From assembly GCA_001661245.1 (NCBI GenBank), contig KV454015.1:248001-312000 (forward strand): 64,000 nt of DNA, given 5' to 3'. The notes under the pieces were generated by a model. It had not been told where the DNA came from. It did no database searches and saw only the letters and a program-made list of their open reading frames with translations. Positions 1 through 16,808 of the stretch are shown in pieces. Position 1 is the stretch's first letter; every line of letters begins with the position of its first letter. This stretch comes from Pachysolen tannophilus NRRL Y-2460. Taxonomy: Eukaryota. The position numbers and the translations under genes were made by a program.

Positions 1-1071
1 CAATTTAGACGTAATAATGGGATGTTAAATGATTTTAATAATTCTAATAATAGAAATGTTTCCTTTAGTGAAGATGATCTTACTAAAATTAAACAAGATG
101 AGATAAAAAGAGAAGAAGCTAAGATAGCTGCAGAAGATGATGATTATGATGATGATGGAGATCAACCAATAGATAGAGCAGAATTGGAAGATTCATATAA
201 TCCAGAAAGTTCGTTCCAGTTACCTCCCCCGAAAATCTTGACTTATGAAGAGAAAAAACAATATTTAAAAGGTATTATTAATCACTATTTAAAATTAGCA
301 AATGAAAGTGAAAATATGGCAAAAGTTGCATCTGAAAAATTTAAAAATGATAATTCAGAGCTTTCAAAAGTTGCTATACAAAATTGGAATAAAGATTCTT
401 GGTTAGTTTTATTAACAAGATTAGCTACTAGGGGTTTATTAGAAGAAGAGAAAAAAGAAATTAATGGTGATAGAGAAGATGAAAATTTGAGCGATTTGAT
501 TAGAAATGCAATTTTCCATTATTTTGCAGATGATATTAGAGGAAGAGTTGATATTGTTATAGAATGGTTGAATGAAGAATGGTTTAGTGAATATATTAAG
601 AATGAAAAAAAACTGATTGATTTAAAAGAAAATACTGATGGTTCTCAACCAGAGACAATTAAACAAGAAAATGAAGATACTTCTTCACTGGAAAGGGCTT
701 TGTTATCTCTTCATGCAAAAGGTTCAATAGTAACAACACCAAATTATATTTTATGGACATCAAAAGTTTTGGATAGTATGCTTTTATTTTTGGAATCTAA
801 TGATAGAAAAATATTTATTAGGTTGTTATCTGATTTACCATATTTGAATAAAGATTTAGTCTGGAAAATTAAATCGTTGTGCTTGGATCCTATTAGATTC
901 AAAATTGGATTTCAATCTATACAATTTTTAATTATGTACAGACCTCCAGTTAAGGAAACTTGTATCGATTTGTTAAAAGAATTATACGAGGAGACTTCTG
1001 AACAAACTGAATTAGAAGACTTGAAAAATGAAATTATCCTGTTGTTAAAGAAATTTTGTCCAGAGGAACTT
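1..1071 (+). CDS. PTA1: Pta1/symplekin-like mRNA 3'-processing factor, C-terminal part. It is 5'-partial, and the true last codons are displaced by an inversion to 2197-2236 on the - strand.
   Basis: The frame is open from base 1. Motifs WLVLLTRLATRG, IVIEWLNEEW, KIFIRLLSDLP and QFLIMYRPP are typical of the Pta1 C-terminal region. Residues after ...FCPEEL in the ORF track are antisense HOS1 sequence. Confidence 0.85.
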
Positions 1072-2024
1072 GGAATTAAAATCTCATTTATAATTTTTAA
1101 TAAATTTTTATTAGATAACCCTGCTCTCATTGGTAAATTCACATCATAATTGAAACCTTTCCCAATACCTCTATCTTTTTCTAAATCACCTGTTCCTGGG
1201 AAAAACCCAACATCAAACCGATGAATAGAAAAAGTTAGCACCTTATTTGACATTTTAAAAGCATTGGATACACCATCTCCATGATGTAAATCAAAATCAA
1301 TATACATTATTTTGTCAAAAACTGATCTTAATCTTAAAATACCAAGAACTATATCATTAATATAGCAAAACCCTGAAGCTTTTGTTTTTTGAGCATGATG
1401 CCTGCCTCCAAACCAGTTTATTGAAATTATCCTCGATTTAATTCTCTCTAACTTGTATTTCCTTATTAACCAGTCACAAGCAGATAAGGTACTACCACCA
1501 ATTATTTCAACGTATTTATTCATATACGGGAAAATCGAGCAGTCATAGATCAACCCTAATTCTTTTAGTTTATCCAAATTTTCCAGTGCTGATTCATTCT
1601 GATCTTCATCAAAACTATAATCTGAATTTTCTTCTTCTTCCTCCTCATTGTCTTCTTCTTCTTTTTCTTCTTCTTCTCCATCCACTGCTGACGTCTTTGA
1701 GTTAGTTAATTTTTTAGAAAACTTTGCAAGTTCCATTAACGATTTAAACTTCTCATGATCCAACTCATCATCAATATACTTTCTTTCCTTCATCAAGAAA
1801 TCCACAAACGATTTATCATGAAATTTAACCAAATCTTGCTTGTTACATTTCCTATAGTTGATCAATTGAACATTGGGTAACTTGTGTAAATTGTAAGCAT
1901 TTATTAGTGATGTTATCAATGACGATCTATTTTCATTCGAAGGAACTAAGTCACAGTAGAAACAATCTAAAGGTGACAACAACAATAATCCCACTTGAAC
2001 ACTGCAATTTGGTTCCACCGTCAT
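1071..2024 (-). CDS. HOS1: Class I histone deacetylase Hos1, N-terminal 318 codons (inside the inverted segment)
   Basis: Motifs INWFGGRHHA..KASGFCYINDIV, YIDFDLHHGDGV, FSIH and GFFPGTG. HDAC-like sequence stops at ...NEILIP (1071). Confidence 0.88.
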
Positions 2025-2196
2025 TAAACATTAAATTTATACTATAAATTATGTGAAATTCATTTTTAGAAATATACCTACAATATTTATATCAGAAGTT
2101 CAATTATCATTATCAAAGTTTTTATAAAGATGGTAAATAAAAAAAAAAAAAAAAAAAGTAAATACAAAATGCTATTAATGTGTGCTATAATACAGT

Positions 2197-2236
2197 TTAT
2201 GAGTTTTCTTTTATGGGTTGAGCGTCGTCGTTGTTA
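2197..2236 (-). CDS. PTA1: Displaced C-terminal tail and stop of PTA1 (..L NNDDAQPIKENS*)
   Basis: The reverse complement of 2236-2197 joins PTA1 codon CT|T in frame and ends in TAA. Confidence 0.7.
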
Positions 2237-2665
2237 ATTATTTACAAGTTTAAACCAGAATGTTTGGTGATACAATGTGGATGTGATGGATTAAATACAG
2301 ATGAGCATCAGCAGTGGAATTTAACTATAAAAGGCATGGCATTTGCAATTAACAAAATCTTGTCCACAACGGAAATGCCTGTATTACTACTAGGTGGTGG
2401 TGGATATAACCACACCGAGGTAGCGAAATGTTGGACTTATTTGACGCTGATTGCCAGTAATTTTCAAACAGAAAAAGATGATGATGATGATGATGATTAT
2501 GATAAATGGGATTTAATACCAGAACATTCTCATTTAGATTGCTATGAAGGAGATGGTTATGAATTTTGGAAGAACGAAAGAGAAAAGCGCATGAAAGATC
2601 AAAATGAAGAAGACGGATGGTTAGACTATCTTAAAAAAGAAATTTTGAAAAGAGATATTAAATAA
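2237..2665 (+). CDS. HOS1: Hos1 histone deacetylase, C-terminal part
   Basis: Reads IIYKFKPECLVIQCGCDGL..D, LLLGGGGYN and AKCWTYLT. It has no ATG of its own at the start and continues exactly from ...EILIP of the N-terminal piece. Confidence 0.88.
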   Translation: MIYKFKPECLVIQCGCDGLNTDEHQQWNLTIKGMAFAINKILSTTEMPVLLLGGGGYNHTEVAKCWTYLTLIASNFQTEKDDDDDDDYDKWDLIPEHSHLDCYEGDGYEFWKNEREKRMKDQNEEDGWLDYLKKEILKRDIK

Positions 2666-2731
2666 AAGAAAAGAATATAGAAAAAAAAAAAAAAAATGAA
2701 AATGCGTAATCGTAATTATTAAAAGTTTTGT

Positions 2732-4138
2732 TTAATCTAGTCGAAATAATGAACCAAAAGTTGTATTCCAAGTTTCATCCCATCTTTCTTGACTTTCAAG
2801 CATTGCACCTTTTTTAATTTTTTCTAATGATTCTGGTCCATTATTTTCATTTAATAATATTTCTAATGCATTAAACATTCCAATGAAATCTTTAACTAGA
2901 ATTCCATTCACTCCATCTTTAACCAATTCTTCAATTGAATCGAAGGTTAAACTAATAACGGGGATACCACATCCAAATAAATCTACAATTTTCATTGGTA
3001 AATCAACACCTGATGAAGATTTATGTAAGGATACACCTAAATCTGCTACGCTCAAAATTGTTGGATAATCTTCAGAAGAGACCCATATAGTTTTCACAAT
3101 AATTTTTGTAAAATCTGCTTTTTTAACTTGGTTTAAAAATTTTTCTTTTAAAGGACCTTTACCTGTTATTATTACTAAGAGATTTGGTAATGATTTATTT
3201 ATTTCTTCATCGTATAACATTAAAGCTTGAATTAATACTGAAAAATCTTCATCTTCTGAAAATGATGTTGAAGAAATAATTATTTTGTCTTTATTAGCTT
3301 CAAATTCGAAAAAATTGTTTGAAACTTCGAAAATTTGTGGGAATTTCAGTATAATTTTCAATTTTTCATCTTGAGATGAAACTGGTTTAAAATGATTAGC
3401 TGCTTTATCATATAAAGTTATTATTTTCAGTTTATTTATTCCAAATTCTTTATTTAAGAAAATACCCATTTTCTTTGATACAACTAAATTTAAATAACTA
3501 TATTTACTTAAAAATGATTCATAAAATTTCATAAATTTAACAATTGGATGCTGAAGATTTTGAAATTTTAAATTTAAAATTGTATAATTTAAATTATGCC
3601 AATCAATTATAATTTTACAATTTTTAAACCAAAATTTCTTTAATATAACAATTATTAATAAAATGGGTAAAGAAGGTGGATTTTGAATTAAAATATAATT
3701 TGAATTTTCCATAACATTAAATAACAATGAAGTTAAAGTAATACTTTGATATAAAACTTTTAATAAACCAAATAATATATAGGGTAAATGAAAATAATTT
3801 TTAATAACTTTTATTTGATAAATATCAATTTCTTCATCATTTAAGATATCTAATGGTAATAAACTTTCAACGTATCCACATAATTTAACTTGATACCCTA
3901 ATTTAGCAAAACTTTCCAGATGATAACACATTCTTGGTGAATGGCCTAAATCTCCCAATACACATATAACTATTTGATTTTTTTTAATCTTTAACCTTGA
4001 ATGAAATCTATTTGTTATTGCAGGTAATACAATATAAAAAATTAATGGAGAAGCAAAGTATACAATAATTAAACCCCAAACCCATCCTGCAAATTCAAAA
4101 GCTCCATGATCAAACCCTTTATACTCTATCCAGGACAT
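2732..4138 (-). CDS. ALG1: Chitobiosyldiphosphodolichol beta-1,4-mannosyltransferase
   Basis: Motifs VLGDLGHSPRM.YH, QNPPSLP, IIDWHN, SSTSFSEDEDF and SSSGVDLPMKIVD; N-terminal TM segment; ATG at 4138. Confidence 0.95.
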   Translation of the reverse strand: MSWIEYKGFDHGAFEFAGWVWGLIIVYFASPLIFYIVLPAITNRFHSRLKIKKNQIVICVLGDLGHSPRMCYHLESFAKLGYQVKLCGYVESLLPLDILNDEEIDIYQIKVIKNYFHLPYILFGLLKVLYQSITLTSLLFNVMENSNYILIQNPPSLPILLIIVILKKFWFKNCKIIIDWHNLNYTILNLKFQNLQHPIVKFMKFYESFLSKYSYLNLVVSKKMGIFLNKEFGINKLKIITLYDKAANHFKPVSSQDEKLKIILKFPQIFEVSNNFFEFEANKDKIIISSTSFSEDEDFSVLIQALMLYDEEINKSLPNLLVIITGKGPLKEKFLNQVKKADFTKIIVKTIWVSSEDYPTILSVADLGVSLHKSSSGVDLPMKIVDLFGCGIPVISLTFDSIEELVKDGVNGILVKDFIGMFNALEILLNENNGPESLEKIKKGAMLESQERWDETWNTTFGSLFRLD

Positions 4139-4244
4139 ACTCAACCTCAAGCCCTAACACACCTTTAATTGATCAATTACTTTTTTAAAATCATTTTTAA
4201 TTAAAGTATATATATATATATATATATATATATTTGAAATGAGA

Positions 4245-6304: not shown

Positions 6305-9300
6305 TTATGGCCAACTTGGGTTTAATTCCCCAACCCATTCGGCCTCCATTGGTCTAAACATTTTAATTTCACCTTCAGTTAATTTTTTCAAATCTAAAGC
6401 ATCTCTAACAACTTTTTTCATTCCACCAGTATTTTGATGAATAACCATCAATTCACCATCACCTCTATTTTCTAAAACAATTGAAGTATGATCAGGTGCT
6501 CCAAGCATCATAGTTTTATTTGGATATTTGAAAATACATGATTTGAATTGTAAAATATCACCTCTTCTAATTTCATCGCTTACCAGTGATTTTGTAAAAA
6601 TTGGAGATGATGACTCACCATTACCAGTCTCGATTTCATACAAATATCCATGGTTGAGCCCGTCACTGATAAAAGCATGCTTACCACAAGCTTTTTCTAA
6701 TGCATCATGGGCCAATGTCCAGCACTCGCCATTTCCAACTTTAGTACCTTCCTTCACTTCACACCAACTAGCAACATGATTACCAAATTTTTCATGTGAT
6801 TCCAAAAGTTGCCTTTGAGAAGTTACTTGTGGCGGTGGTACAAATTTCTTATCAACATCGTACGAGTTACGAGGCTCTGATGATATCTTTGACCATTTTA
6901 TCCTCAATTTTAAAATTGACAAATCTCTTAATCTAAAAACAAAAATTCTAAAATTTTCATTCCCTGAATAGCCAAACGATGTTGCAAAATTTAAACCTCT
7001 TAAAGATTGCGGTAAGTCGGACAATGACTGATCGGACCACCAACCGGATGATAATTGCAAATCTAAATCCGGTTCTTGCCACAGTAATCTACTGTTACGA
7101 GATGGCGGAGCAACAGGTGGACCTGAAGATTTTTGACTTAATAATCTCGGTTTAACCGGTGGCAGGACAGGTTTTTTATGTTCTGGAGTCATCGAGGTCT
7201 TCAGTTGCGGCAGAGGAATGGCAACTCGGGGTCTTGGTTTAACAGGTGGAGGTGTATCATCACTATCACTTCTACCAGAGTGAGCAGATATTGGGGGTTC
7301 TCGGTTCACTGGTAAAGGTTGTGGATGCTTCATTTGAACTTCTTCATGCTGATACAAGTTGTCACGACGTTTTGGTATTGGCGGCAGTTCTTCATTATCA
7401 TCATTTGACAGAACCGACGAAGAATCATTATTCTTACCAGACAGCGCTGATGATGGTAATATTTGTACAGGAGTTCTCAATCTAACCTGATGACCGTAAC
7501 TTTCTTCTTCTTTAAGTTGTTGGCGTCTCTGAGGCAAATGAGGAGCTTCTTCTTCGTCATCTTTCTGTATATTTCCGTTATACCTCGAAGGCATTGAAGG
7601 TAATTTAACTCCACCAAAAGGTTTGCCTTGATTATATTCATTGTCTTCTCCGGTATTTTCTTTTGAAGTTTGTCTCATAAAAGAAGGCTTTTTAGCTACC
7701 GTAGGCTTTGGTTTAATTATTGGTGGTTTCTTAGGTTTGGAGATATCTTTTTGATTATTTCTTGGCTCTTGTAAGGCTATTTTTTCTGTTACCTGATTTA
7801 AATTTTTTTTAAAAGAAAGCCTGTCCATATTCTCTTCCTCATCTTTTTTAAAATCATCATTACCAGATTCAAGATTCTCAGTTGTACTATCTGATTTTTC
7901 AAATCGATCCAAATTTCGGTTTGTCTTTCTCAATCCTCCGCGTAAAGATCCAATAAAATTTTCATTTTCATTGTCTTGCTGAGAAGACAATTTGTAGTCT
8001 TGAGATCTTTGGCTAATAGATCTCTCTTTCAAAAAATGATGTTCATTGAGCGGAGCAGGAACAGAAGAGCTCAGTTCAGCGTGATCCGTATGATCTACGA
8101 TTTGCTCTTTAGATTCAATTTCATTATCATTACCAACAGATAAATTTTTCGGTTTCTTTGCTGGTTTTGGAGGTGGACCTTTTTTATTCAAAGATAAGTT
8201 CTCAGTTTTTTTAACTATATTGGAAAATGGTTCATTATCTTCTTTAGAATAACTTGACTGCATGGAAATTTTTGCTGATCTTCTATCATCATTAGCAATA
8301 TTTTTAGTTTCTGGTCTATAAGGCCTTGGAGGTGGGGGTAAAGATGAAATATCATTCGATTTTTCAACTTTATTATTCAGTTGTACGTTTTCCAGTCTAG
8401 CAGCATTGATAGGAGTAGCATTTGATGATGTCCTTGTTGGTAACGGTGGAAGTGGGCTAGCCAGCGCGTTAGAGAGATTTGAAGTTGACAGACCATTTAC
8501 CTGGCCTCTAAAAGGCTTTGGAGGGGGTGTAAAACTATTAATTTGAGATTCAGCACTAATTGGAGTTGAAACTTTTTCCGTAGATACAGAATGAGAAACA
8601 TCATGCTCTGGAGCAGTTTGCGGAGTCAGTACACCAGTAGATGAGCTTGTTGACTTCTTGGAAAGCTGTTCTGATGCACCTCTTCCTCTATGGATTGGTG
8701 GCGGAGCAAAAGACTTTGGATCAGGAAGAGGTTTAAGTGGTTTCTGCTCTTCTTCATCTTCTTCACCAGGCAATTTTGGCATTCTAACACCAAAGTTACC
8801 TACTGGAGATGGTACATCAAGTGCCGGAGGTGACGAAATATGGGGTTGCCCATTTACTTGTTGCGTTGGCTGTTGAACTTGATAATAGGGGTTATTAAAC
8901 GATAATTCATTTTGTTGTTCGGGTTGTCCGGGTTGTGGTTGCTGATACTGATTCGAATTCTCAAAAGAATCTCTTGGAGGTGGAACAGGAAGCAGCGTTC
9001 TAGCATACTGCTGTTGCTGTTGTTGTTGTGGTGGTGGTGGTGGTAGCTGTTGAGTTTGTGGTAATGGCAGAGATTGTGGCTGCTGCATAGGCATAGGCAT
9101 TGGCGTTGGCGGCTGAGGTTGCTGAGGCTGCTGAGGCTGCTGCGGTTGTTGATAAGCAGGAGAAGCAGGTGCTTGATATTGCATCGGCAGCGGCTGTTGT
9201 TGATAACCTTGTGGCAGTAATGGCTGCTGCTCATAACCTTGCTGCTGAGGCTGATAGTACTGCTGCTGCTGCTGAGTCTGTTGCAGTGGAATTGGCTGAA

Positions 9301-9883
9301 TTTGAGCTGGCTGTTGATATCCCTGCTGTGGAACTGACTGCTGTGAAGCAAACTGCTGTGGTGGAGCAGGCTGTTGTTGGTTATAGTACATCTGTTGTGG
9401 TTGTTGTTGTGGTTGAGGTTGTTGATATCCTGGCTGATACGAGGATTGTAGTTGCTGCTGCGAGTACCCAACCATCGGCTGCTGCTGTTGTAGTGGTTGT
9501 TGTACTTGTGCTGGTGGAAGATATCCCCCCGCTGATCCAGCTGTACCATTTCTTGCTGGTGGAGCAGGAAATTGCGATGGATTTACTGTGGAATACGAAT
9601 TTGCAGTTCTAGAAGATGAACCACCAGAACGACGCTCTTCTTCATCGGAATAATCATCATATTCACTATCCGAGCGGCTATCACGCTTGCTACCACTACG
9701 ACGGCTATGCCCATCCCTTCTATGTCTTCCATGTGCACTTTTCGACTTATCTCTATTATCATAAGCTTTCTTACCAGCATGATATCCAGCAACAGTGACT
9801 TTTTTGGTTCCAATAGCGGCACCTTTAAGCGTAGCTTTCCCAGCAGCTTTAAATGTACCTTTATTTTCTTCCCAAAACGGCAT
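6305..9883 (-). CDS. AIM3: Aim3-family actin-patch protein, Pro/Gln-rich, with a C-terminal Bbc1-like domain
   Basis: N-terminus MPFWEENK...GTKKV..AGY and the DPKSFAPPP motif resemble Aim3. The C-terminal domain contains VGNGECWTLA and GAPDHTSIV. Syntenic with CMD1 and IML3. Confidence 0.75.
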   Translation of the reverse strand: MPFWEENKGTFKAAGKATLKGAAIGTKKVTVAGYHAGKKAYDNRDKSKSAHGRHRRDGHSRRSGSKRDSRSDSEYDDYSDEEERRSGGSSSRTANSYSTVNPSQFPAPPARNGTAGSAGGYLPPAQVQQPLQQQQPMVGYSQQQLQSSYQPGYQQPQPQQQPQQMYYNQQQPAPPQQFASQQSVPQQGYQQPAQIQPIPLQQTQQQQQYYQPQQQGYEQQPLLPQGYQQQPLPMQYQAPASPAYQQPQQPQQPQQPQPPTPMPMPMQQPQSLPLPQTQQLPPPPPQQQQQQQYARTLLPVPPPRDSFENSNQYQQPQPGQPEQQNELSFNNPYYQVQQPTQQVNGQPHISSPPALDVPSPVGNFGVRMPKLPGEEDEEEQKPLKPLPDPKSFAPPPIHRGRGASEQLSKKSTSSSTGVLTPQTAPEHDVSHSVSTEKVSTPISAESQINSFTPPPKPFRGQVNGLSTSNLSNALASPLPPLPTRTSSNATPINAARLENVQLNNKVEKSNDISSLPPPPRPYRPETKNIANDDRRSAKISMQSSYSKEDNEPFSNIVKKTENLSLNKKGPPPKPAKKPKNLSVGNDNEIESKEQIVDHTDHAELSSSVPAPLNEHHFLKERSISQRSQDYKLSSQQDNENENFIGSLRGGLRKTNRNLDRFEKSDSTTENLESGNDDFKKDEEENMDRLSFKKNLNQVTEKIALQEPRNNQKDISKPKKPPIIKPKPTVAKKPSFMRQTSKENTGEDNEYNQGKPFGGVKLPSMPSRYNGNIQKDDEEEAPHLPQRRQQLKEEESYGHQVRLRTPVQILPSSALSGKNNDSSSVLSNDDNEELPPIPKRRDNLYQHEEVQMKHPQPLPVNREPPISAHSGRSDSDDTPPPVKPRPRVAIPLPQLKTSMTPEHKKPVLPPVKPRLLSQKSSGPPVAPPSRNSRLLWQEPDLDLQLSSGWWSDQSLSDLPQSLRGLNFATSFGYSGNENFRIFVFRLRDLSILKLRIKWSKISSEPRNSYDVDKKFVPPPQVTSQRQLLESHEKFGNHVASWCEVKEGTKVGNGECWTLAHDALEKACGKHAFISDGLNHGYLYEIETGNGESSSPIFTKSLVSDEIRRGDILQFKSCIFKYPNKTMMLGAPDHTSIVLENRGDGELMVIHQNTGGMKKVVRDALDLKKLTEGEIKMFRPMEAEWVGELNPSWP

Positions 9884-14429: not shown

Positions 14430-15508
14430 TTACCAACCTCTAGTTGATAATTTTTCAAAATTTTTCAAGCTATCAACAGTGATACCTTGCATACTTTCAC
14501 CTAGGTCTTTTGAATACTCTAAGATTTTCTTTGGGTCATTGTAGTGGGTTACCGAATTGACTATTGCTCTTGCAATTTTTTCTGGGTTTGCACTTTTAAA
14601 AATACCAGAACCAACAAATACACCATCACAACCCATTTGCATACAAAGAGCTGCATCTGCTGGAGTTGCAATTCCACCTGCAGCAAAGTTTACTACTGGT
14701 AATTTCCCCTTATTATCGATAAGATCTTGTAATAATTTAAAAGGAACTCTTAATTCATTTGCATATTCTTGAATTTCACTTGGTGTTTTCAAAGATAAAG
14801 CTATTTCAATATCTTGTTTAATAATATTGATATGATTAACAGCTTCAGAGATATCACCAGTTCCAGCTTCACCTTTTGTTCTAATCATTGCAGCACCTTC
14901 ATTTATACGTCTTAAAGCTTCTCCTAAATTTCTCAGACCGCAAACAAATGGAATTTTGAAATCATTTTTCGCAATATGATTGATCTTATCTGCAGGAGTT
15001 AAAACTTCAGATTCATCAATATAATCAACTTCTAAAGCTTCTAATATTTCAGCCTCAACAAAATGACCAATTCTACATTTTGCCATAACTGGAATTGAAA
15101 CACTGAAAAAATTATTAATTATATTAGTAATTGAAACTTTTTTTTTCAGTTATCACAATTAAATCGCATACATATCATGCATACAAATTGAATATATTTA
15201 ATTTTATTTACTTACGCATTCATAATATCTTCAATAAATTTTGGATCAGACATTCTAGATACACCACCGTATTTCCTAATATCAGAAGGAACTCTTTCTA
15301 AAGCCATAACAGCACATGCACCTGCTCTTTCAGCGATTAATGCTTGCTCGACATTTACAACACTAAAAACATAATTAGTAAATCTGAAATATATATATAT
15401 ATATATATATATTGGGGTGTTTTAAAATACTTACTCCATTATAACACCACCTTTAAGCATTTGGGCTAAACCAGCTTTTAATTGAAAAGTATTTTGAACT
15501 TCAGACAT
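14430..15508 (-). CDS. SNZ1: Pyridoxal 5'-phosphate synthase subunit Pdx1/Snz. Exons 15508-15435, 15362-15216 and 15102-14430 (297 aa).
   Basis: The spliced product reads [28 protein letters not shown]...[13 protein letters not shown]...[14 protein letters not shown]. Both introns have GTAAGT donors, TACTAAT branch points and YAG acceptors. Confidence 0.95.
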
Positions 15509-16046: not shown

Positions 16047-16808
16047 ATGAAACAAAAAATTAAATTGGGGGTTTTAGCGATACAAGGTGCTTTTAAAGAA
16101 CACATTCACCATTTTGAAAAAATTATTGAGAAAGAACAATATCAAGATTATGAGATTGAAGTAGTTGAAATTAGTCAACTGGACCAATTAATCTCATGTA
16201 ATGCTTTAGTTATTCCTGGAGGTGAAAGTACTTCCATATCGATAACCGCTGAGAGAATAGGTTTATTAGAACCATTACGAGATTTTATTAGAAAAGGTAA
16301 ACCAGTCTGGGGTACTTGTGCTGGATTAATTTTACTTGCTTCAAAGATAACTAATGCTTCTCTGGGACAAAAATTAATTGGTGGATTAGATATTGAAGTT
16401 CAAAGAAATGCTTTTGGAAGACAATTGAATTCTTTTGCAATTCCCAAGGTGGATTTTAGTTCTTTTATTCCAGGTTGTAAAGATTTCCAACACGCTGTTT
16501 TCATTAGAGCACCTGTTGTTACAGCTATAAATATCTTTAATAATACTACAGATTCTTTTATTAAAAATAATGATAATAATGATAAATATTTTAATAATCA
16601 ATCAGTAGTTTATGCACCATCATATGCATACAATTTTGAAGAAAAAAAACCTCAAGTGGAAATATTATCAAGACTTGATGAATCTCATAAAAATTTAATT
16701 GTCGCTGTAAGACAAGGTCAAATCTTAGGAACAGCTTTTCACCCAGAATTATCAAAAGATTCTAGGTTTCATCAATGGTTCTTGGAAGAATTTGTATTGA
16801 AATTGTAG
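16047..16808 (+). CDS. SNO1: PLP synthase glutaminase subunit Pdx2/Sno
   Basis: Motifs GVLAIQGAF.EH, IPGGEST, WGTCAGLI, RNAFGRQ, FIRAP and AFHPEL; divergent from SNZ1. Confidence 0.95.
   Translation: MKQKIKLGVLAIQGAFKEHIHHFEKIIEKEQYQDYEIEVVEISQLDQLISCNALVIPGGESTSISITAERIGLLEPLRDFIRKGKPVWGTCAGLILLASKITNASLGQKLIGGLDIEVQRNAFGRQLNSFAIPKVDFSSFIPGCKDFQHAVFIRAPVVTAINIFNNTTDSFIKNNDNNDKYFNNQSVVYAPSYAYNFEEKKPQVEILSRLDESHKNLIVAVRQGQILGTAFHPELSKDSRFHQWFLEEFVLKL

What the first reader, a model, noticed from the sequence alone, without database searches (positions are those of the whole stretch)
1070..2237. Precise ~1.17 kb inversion that breaks both PTA1 and HOS1
Seen in the sequence: the HOS1 N-terminal part runs on the - strand (2024 to 1071, ending ...NEILIP), while its C-terminal part runs on the + strand from 2237 (IIYKFKPECLVIQCGCDG). 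Reverse-complementing 1071-2236 gives a continuous ~460-aa Hos1 (...EILIP-IIYKFKPE...). The same flip gives PTA1 a natural end (...KKFCPEEL-NNDDAQPIKENS*), in frame and with no apparent bases gained or lost. The breakpoints share only a 2-bp TT/AA inverted microhomology (1070-1071 / 2236-2237), with no long inverted repeats and no recombinase nearby. Inference: as written, Hos1 is separated from its second Zn-ligand Asp and GGGGY motif and should be inactive, while Pta1 gains a foreign 26-aa tail. The cause could be a very recent strain-specific inversion, an assembly or sequence artefact, or, least likely, a switchable segment.
Basis: seen in the sequence. Interest (0 to 1): 0.9.

Follow-up and report, generated by a model that had tools for sequence, protein, structure and literature searches.

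The report
Assembly-error inversion splitting yeast HOS1
A 1.16-kb stretch of this yeast reference sequence is written backwards, which falsely breaks a histone deacetylase gene and mis-ends its neighbour; sequencing data show the normal order, so this is an assembly error and not biology.

Summary
In the window, HOS1 is split into an N-terminal part on the - strand (2024..1071) and a C-terminal part on the + strand (to 2665). PTA1 runs into a foreign 25-codon tail. Pfam places the two HOS1 pieces at contiguous profile positions, 2-222 and 224-295 of 298.

The organism is Pachysolen tannophilus NRRL Y-2460, named by the closest protein hit. The public annotation carries the same defect. The annotated Pta1 (P0121, 829 aa) ends in the foreign tail, and the annotated Hos1 (P0001) is a truncated 246-aa model.

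The reads do not support it. Contigs from all 4 of 4 read sets laid (2 samples, 2 studies, 2010-2023) join 1070 to 2233 and 1071 to 2234 on opposite strands, at word depth 66-187. That is the un-inverted order, and no contig bridges either junction as the window writes it.

The true misoriented segment is 1071-2233 (1163 bp), 3 bp shorter than proposed. There are no flanking inverted repeats and no recombinase.

Verdict: a local orientation error in a public assembly, with intact HOS1 (461 aa) and PTA1 in the organism. It has low biological interest and is useful as an erratum.

The parts
1..1070 (+). PTA1 (symplekin/Pta1) C-terminal part, correctly oriented, up to the left breakpoint. The breakpoint falls after the second base of the Leu codon 1069-1071.
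   Evidence: Open frame from the window start. It is 100% identical to the C-terminal half of the 829-aa protein P0121 and 40-52% identical to Pta1/symplekin proteins of other yeasts. Read contigs cover 1-1070 with 0 differences.
1071..2233 (.). The misoriented 1163-bp segment, written as the reverse complement of the order found in the reads.
   Evidence: tables 5 and 8. In X1, X3, X4 and X5 one contig of 2536 nt runs 1..1070 and then straight into 2233..2170 on the other strand. One contig of 1364 nt runs 2463..2234 on one strand and then straight into 1071..2127 on the other. There are no letters between the pieces and 0 other letters.
1072..1149 (+). Spurious 25-codon tail plus stop that the deposited order adds to PTA1. 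It is the antisense of HOS1 coding sequence.
   Evidence: The annotated protein P0121 ends with exactly this tail.
1071..2024 (-). HOS1 N-terminal 318 codons. They hold the first part of the class I HDAC domain, including the D-x-H zinc-ligand pair in the DFDLHHGDG stretch.
   Evidence: PF00850 profile 2-222/298, E 4.9e-50. 99% identical to P0001 and 34-54% identical to the other 119 proteins listed, many of them fungal Hos1/HDAC8-like.
2025..2196 (-). True PTA1-HOS1 intergenic spacer (172 bp), holding an A/T homopolymer run at about 2137-2158. It carries the HOS1 promoter and the PTA1 3' region.
   Evidence: Scripted flip: 172 bases lie between the PTA1 stop and the HOS1 ATG. Sequence.
2197..2233 (-). 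True end of PTA1: the last base of the split Leu codon, 11 codons and a TAA stop.
   Evidence: A read contig joins 1070 directly to 2233.
2234..2665 (+). HOS1 C-terminal 143 codons plus stop, correctly oriented. They hold the second zinc-ligand Asp (CGCDG) and the GGGGY motif.
   Evidence: PF00850 profile 224-295/298, E 1.5e-16. Aligns to human HDAC2 residues 244-320, E 1.8e-16. Read contigs cover 2234-2463 and 2510-2652.

Best explanation
The inversion is an orientation error in the deposited genome assembly. It is not a feature of the yeast. In the organism the order is PTA1 (ending 11 codons after the breakpoint), a 172-bp spacer, and then an intact 461-codon HOS1, all on one strand. In the assembly the 1163 bases at window 1071-2233 were written as their reverse complement, with nothing lost or gained. 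Automatic annotation of that sequence then produced a Pta1 with a meaningless 25-residue tail and a truncated 246-residue Hos1 model.

Shown: the deposited order and its gene models, and the un-inverted order in the reads. Inferred: the fault arose during assembly or finishing. How it arose is unknown, because the breakpoints are blunt and do not lie in repeats.
For: 1.. In 4 of 4 runs laid (X1, X3 and X4 from one sample and study, 2010-11; X5 from another sample and study, 2023), contigs at mean word depth 66-187 cross both breakpoints in the un-inverted order only (joints 1070>2233 and 1071>2234, 'opposite strands'). They have 64 and 230 letters on the shorter side, 0 letters between and 0 differences. 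No contig bridges 1070|1071 or 2233|2234 as the window writes them.
2.. All 5 holders have the same share of sampled words, 0.94. This is compatible with the junction words being absent, but it is not diagnostic on its own.
3.. P0121 is an 829-aa protein on the same 1,269,836-bp contig as P0001. It reaches 447 residues upstream of the window, reads CTG as Ala, and ends with the foreign tail. The inversion is therefore in the public record and was not introduced when the window was cut.
4.. The public Hos1 model P0001 is only 246 aa and ends in 7 out-of-frame residues.
5.. The flip restores both genes exactly, with no decay in either piece, as expected if the genes are intact in vivo.
6.. There are no inverted repeats at the breakpoints and no recombinase in the window.
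7. (passages of PMC13232491 seen). The public assembly of this strain is listed there as scaffold level, with contig N50 in the 10^4 bp bin against scaffold N50 in the 10^6 bp bin. It was therefore joined from many small contigs.
Against: - The runs are held only as contigs, which drop rare variants. A minor inverted sub-population cannot be excluded (header).
- I cannot show that X1, X3 and X4 are the reads the assembly was built from. Their kind is on record only as '?'. I infer DNA from 13-16 Mb of contigs, even depth and contigs that run through the intergenic spacer.
- I know of no assembler failure that gives a blunt, perfectly balanced flip with both ends in unique sequence. The read contigs do not end at the breakpoints.
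- The culture used for the deposited assembly could have differed from those behind the runs.
Confidence: 0.88

Rival explanations
1. A real, very recent inversion confined to the particular culture or clone that was sequenced for the deposited assembly. It would knock out HOS1 (non-essential in S. cerevisiae, from general knowledge) and leave the conserved part of Pta1 intact.
For: It stands in a public assembly and its annotation. The left breakpoint lies just past the last conserved Pta1 residues: 4 of 4 orthologues inspected end 0-3 residues after the equivalent position, so the essential gene would survive. Neither ORF piece shows decay, which fits a recent event. Blunt balanced inversions can arise by end joining (general knowledge).
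Against: All 4 runs laid, from 2 samples and 2 studies spanning 2010-2023, are identical to the window at every covered base and show only the un-inverted order. Three of them date from the period of the assembly. A blunt inversion with no base lost at either end is rare in nature.
Confidence: 0.08
2. A switchable (invertible) segment present in both orientations in a population, toggling HOS1 on and off.
For: This species does have one proven invertible region: the 8-kb MAT region flanked by 2-kb inverted repeats (PMC6692504, passages seen).
Against: There are no inverted repeats at the breakpoints. No recombinase or transposase family was found in 34 ORFs or pieces scanned. The contigs pass through both breakpoints unbranched in 4 of 4 runs. 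The breakpoints lie inside coding sequence.
Confidence: 0.02
3. The window was altered after download (a planted or accidental change) and the public record is normal.
For: The change is perfectly balanced and blunt, as a scripted flip would be.
Against: P0121 comes from a pre-computed protein collection, extends 447 residues beyond the window, and carries the foreign tail. P0001, named by NCBI and UniRef, is a truncated Hos1 model.
Confidence: 0.02

Closest known systems
Local misorientation (inversion misassembly) in draft genome assemblies
   Same: A short stretch is written in reverse complement with no bases gained or lost. The junctions have no read support, independent read sets show the other order, and the gene models are broken at the junctions.
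   Different: Such errors usually end in repeats, at contig ends or at gaps. Here both ends lie in unique coding sequence, there is no N in the window, and the read contigs run through them.
Flip/flop mating-type switching in Pachysolen tannophilus (8-kb invertible MAT region with 2-kb inverted repeats; PMC6692504 and PMC5499181, passages seen)
   Same: It is a DNA inversion in the same species.
   Different: The MAT inversion is flanked by long inverted repeats, occurs in both orientations and exchanges expressed and silenced genes. The present segment has no repeats, appears in one orientation only in the reads, and would merely break two genes.
Hos1 / HDAC8-like class I histone deacetylases (Pfam PF00850)
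   Same: The two pieces together give a full-length domain with the D-x-H, CG.D and GGGGY motifs. The N piece is 34-54% identical to the other 119 proteins listed, many of them fungal Hos1/HDAC8-like.
   Different: There is nothing unusual once the segment is un-inverted, apart from an acidic insert (about residues 115-145) and one extra residue at the junction relative to 9 of 9 aligned orthologues.

Membership tests
Assembly misorientation artefact | The junctions of the deposited order are absent from the sequencing data | tested here: met
   no contig in 4 of 4 runs bridges 1070|1071 or 2233|2234 as written. The caveat is that these are contigs and not raw reads.
Assembly misorientation artefact | The alternative order is present in the sequencing data, including data independent of the assembly | tested here: met
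   joints 1070>2233 and 1071>2234 appear in X1, X3 and X4 (sample S1, study P1) and in X5 (sample S2, study P2), at depth 66-187.
Assembly misorientation artefact | The error is in the deposited record and not only in this window | tested here: met
   P0121 (829 aa) ends with the foreign tail. P0001 is a truncated Hos1 model.
Assembly misorientation artefact | An identifiable technical cause (repeat, gap or contig end at the breakpoints) | tested here: not met
   There is no N in the window and no repeat at the breakpoints. The methods paper for the assembly is not held.
Site-specific invertible DNA switch | Inverted repeats flanking the segment | tested here: not met
   of 106 pairs, the 25 longest are 16-27 nt and 71-88% complementary, and none has an arm at each breakpoint.
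Site-specific invertible DNA switch | Both orientations present in a population | tested here: not met
   there is one orientation only, in unbranched contigs. Rare variants would not be seen.
Site-specific invertible DNA switch | A recombinase encoded nearby | tested here: not met
   34 ORFs or pieces were scanned and none hit a recombinase, integrase or transposase family.
Class I HDAC, Hos1 type (PF00850) | A complete, colinear deacetylase domain | tested here: met
   profile 2-222 plus 224-295 of 298; the un-inverted 461-aa protein aligns colinearly with 9 of 9 orthologues.
Class I HDAC, Hos1 type (PF00850) | Zinc ligands (Asp, His, Asp) and the catalytic Tyr of GGGGY | tested here: met
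   The motifs are seen in the translations. The C piece aligns to HDAC2 residues 244-320 across CG.D and GGGGY. The roles of these residues are recalled from the HDAC literature and were not tested.
Pta1 / symplekin | Similarity to Pta1 over the C-terminal region, with an end near the conserved last motif | tested here: met
   40-52% identity to 119 listed relatives; 4 of 4 orthologues inspected end 0-3 residues after the position of the breakpoint.

The most novel reading that the evidence does not exclude
The deposited assembly captured a genuine blunt, balanced 1163-bp inversion that arose in the sequenced culture of the type strain. This would be a natural HOS1 knockout that spares the conserved part of the essential PTA1, absent from the other stocks sampled by the runs.
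Probability: 0.08. Interest if true: 0.3.

Novelty: not a real feature. Interest (0 to 1): 0.08.

Why it matters
The biological interest is small, because the yeast almost certainly has ordinary, intact HOS1 and PTA1 genes.

The practical interest is in correcting a reference. The deposited sequence and two public protein entries are wrong: a Pta1 with a 25-residue nonsense tail, and a 246-residue Hos1 fragment named in NCBI and UniRef. Comparative studies of this CUG-Ala yeast could read them as loss or truncation of a histone deacetylase.

It also shows that a clean gene-breaking inversion in a draft assembly should be checked against reads before it is interpreted.

Tried and rejected
- Own-genome search: no whole genome is held for this window, so I could not look for a second HOS1 copy or for other inversions.
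- The look-up of sequencing runs: no RNA holder is listed, so nothing can be said about expression or about transcripts spanning the junction.
- Read laying: there is no cover for 2661-4060. The tool warns that a filter leaves records out, so I draw no conclusion from this.
- Earlier findings of this scan: none exist for this genome.
- The paper describing the assembly (Riley et al. 2016) is not held under its DOI or its PMC id. The id was confirmed from a reference list. The assembler and finishing steps therefore remain unknown to me.
- Literature: 0 papers hold both 'Pachysolen' and 'HOS1'. Five hold 'Pachysolen tannophilus' and 'misassembly' (4 listed). In the one I opened (PMC6692504, passages) the word refers to other species. 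I found no published note of this error in those searches.
- A truncated-looking SNZ gene at 14430-15086 raised the question of a second broken gene. It is simply split by two introns.
- I did not search for a public gene model of the HOS1 C-terminal piece. I did not compare with the independent draft assembly of the same strain (named in PMC4937558), because no tool here holds it.

Full report
**What is in the window**

The first 2.7 kb hold three coding pieces.
- Frame 1 of the + strand is open from base 1 and stops at 1147-1149.
- A - strand ORF runs from an ATG at 2024 down to 912.
- A + strand frame runs from about 2234 to a stop at 2663-2665.

Pfam finds the histone deacetylase domain PF00850 in the - strand piece 2024..1071, at profile positions 2-222 of 298 (E 4.9e-50). 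It finds the same domain in the + strand piece 2237..2665, at profile positions 224-295 of 298 (E 1.5e-16). One domain is therefore cut at a single point and its halves lie on opposite strands.

Reverse-complementing the stretch in a script gives one ORF of 460-461 codons. It also gives the first gene a stop 11-12 codons after the breakpoint. The restored protein aligns colinearly with 9 of 9 orthologues that I picked from the 120 listed. The C-terminal piece aligns to human HDAC2 residues 244-320, across the CG.D and GGGGY stretches.

**Which organism and which genes**

The N-terminal piece is 99% identical to a protein that NCBI names as hypothetical protein PACTADRAFT_34394 of Pachysolen tannophilus NRRL Y-2460 (P0001). 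The only differences are CTG codons read as Ala, which is genetic code 26. The other 119 listed proteins are 34-54% identical, and many are fungal Hos1/HDAC8-like deacetylases.

The first gene is PTA1 (symplekin). It is 100% identical to the C-terminal half of P0121 and 40-52% identical to Pta1 or symplekin of other yeasts. The next gene, at 2732-4138 on the - strand, is a group 1 glycosyltransferase.

**Is the inversion in the public record?**

Yes. It starts 447 residues upstream of the window and reads CTG as Ala. It ends with exactly the 25 foreign residues that the window's arrangement adds to PTA1. P0001, the public Hos1 model, is a 246-residue fragment that leaves the true frame and ends in 7 out-of-frame residues. 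The window was therefore not altered, and the deposited assembly and its annotation carry the inversion.

**Is it in the DNA of the yeast?**

No, as far as the available data show. Five runs hold the stretch, each with 0.94 of the sampled words. I laid four of them on window 1-4200: X1, X3 and X4 (one sample, one study, 2010-11) and X5 (another sample and study, 2023).

The picture is the same in every run.
- A 2536-nt contig runs along 1..1070 and then, without any letter between, along 2233..2170 on the other strand.
- A 1364-nt contig runs along 2463..2234 on one strand and then, without any letter between, along 1071..2127 on the other.
- The tool lists both joints as 'opposite strands' in 4 of 4 runs, with 64 and 230 letters on the shorter side, 'both' = 0 and mean word depth 66-187.
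- There are no other letters, gaps or insertions anywhere in the covered parts.
- No contig crosses 1070|1071 or 2233|2234 in the way the window is written.

This is the un-inverted order: PTA1, a spacer, then a whole HOS1 on one strand.

**Correction of the breakpoint**

The misoriented segment is 1071-2233 (1163 bp).

- With this flip PTA1 ends 11 codons after the split Leu codon, so the window's part is 368 codons and not 382.
- HOS1 is 461 codons, because the TTA at 2234-2236 is kept as a Leu.
The reads decide, and a one-residue difference in a loop is unremarkable.
- 172 bases, including an A/T homopolymer run, separate the PTA1 stop from the HOS1 ATG.

**Mechanism**

The segment has no flanking inverted repeats. 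Of 106 pairs found in 600-2800, the 25 longest are 16-27 nt, 71-88% complementary and low-complexity, and none sits at both breakpoints. None of the 34 ORFs or pieces scanned in the 64-kb window matches a recombinase, integrase or transposase family. Three nested ORFs were not scanned. The joints are blunt.

The one proven invertible region of this species is the 8-kb MAT region with 2-kb inverted repeats (PMC6692504, passages; PMC5499181, passages). It is built quite differently.

I conclude that the flip arose in assembly or finishing. I cannot say how. The breakpoints lie in unique sequence and the window has no N. The methods paper is not held. A paper on assembly metrics lists this strain's public assembly at scaffold level, with contig N50 in the 10^4 bp bin and scaffold N50 in the 10^6 bp bin (PMC13232491, passages). 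It was therefore stitched from many small contigs, which makes a misplaced small piece plausible but does not prove it.

**What remains open**

- The runs are available only as contigs, which hide rare variants. A minor inverted sub-population or a culture-specific event cannot be excluded.
- The runs' kind is on record only as '?' or 'DNA?'. I infer genomic DNA from their total size (13-17 million letters), even depth and contigs that cross the intergenic spacer.
- I give the artefact 0.88, a real culture-specific inversion 0.08, a switch 0.02 and an altered window 0.02.

**Literature**

No held paper contains both 'Pachysolen' and 'HOS1'. The papers holding 'Pachysolen tannophilus' and 'misassembly' (5 found, 4 listed) do not, in the one I opened, refer to this place. 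I therefore found no published note of the error in those searches.

**Verdict**

This is a well-observed but non-biological feature. It is an orientation error of 1163 bp in a public reference assembly, and it has produced two faulty public protein models. Interest is low, and its value is as an erratum.

Noticed in passing
window 14430-15500 (- strand): The SNZ/PDX1-type gene looks N-terminally truncated as an ORF (Pfam SOR_SNZ profile 74-207 of 207). Its first two exons lie upstream in other frames, with GTAAGT at 15434 and 15215, so it is a gene with two introns and is not broken. It is paired divergently with an SNO-type glutaminase gene at 16047-16808.
   Followed up: partly
window 1619-1686 (- strand), HOS1 residues about 115-145: This Hos1 carries a long acidic Glu/Asp-rich insert inside the deacetylase domain and a second Asp run near the C-terminus (2464-2509). 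The read-laying tool masks both as repeats.
   Followed up: no
P0001 (public Hos1 model; window 2024..about 1240, - strand): The public 246-aa model leaves the true frame after ...SVFDKI and ends in 7 residues read out of frame from the GDGVSNAF region. This is a bogus intron that the inversion alone does not explain.
   Followed up: partly
window 6305-9883 (- strand): This is a 1192-aa Pro/Gln-rich protein with AIM3 N-terminal and AIM3/BBC1 C-terminal domains. It holds 19 CTG codons, which makes it a good test case for the CTG=Ala reading.
   Followed up: no
window 2661-4060: No contig of any of the 4 runs was laid here, although the flanks are covered. The tool warns that a filter drops records, so I read nothing into it.
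   Followed up: no
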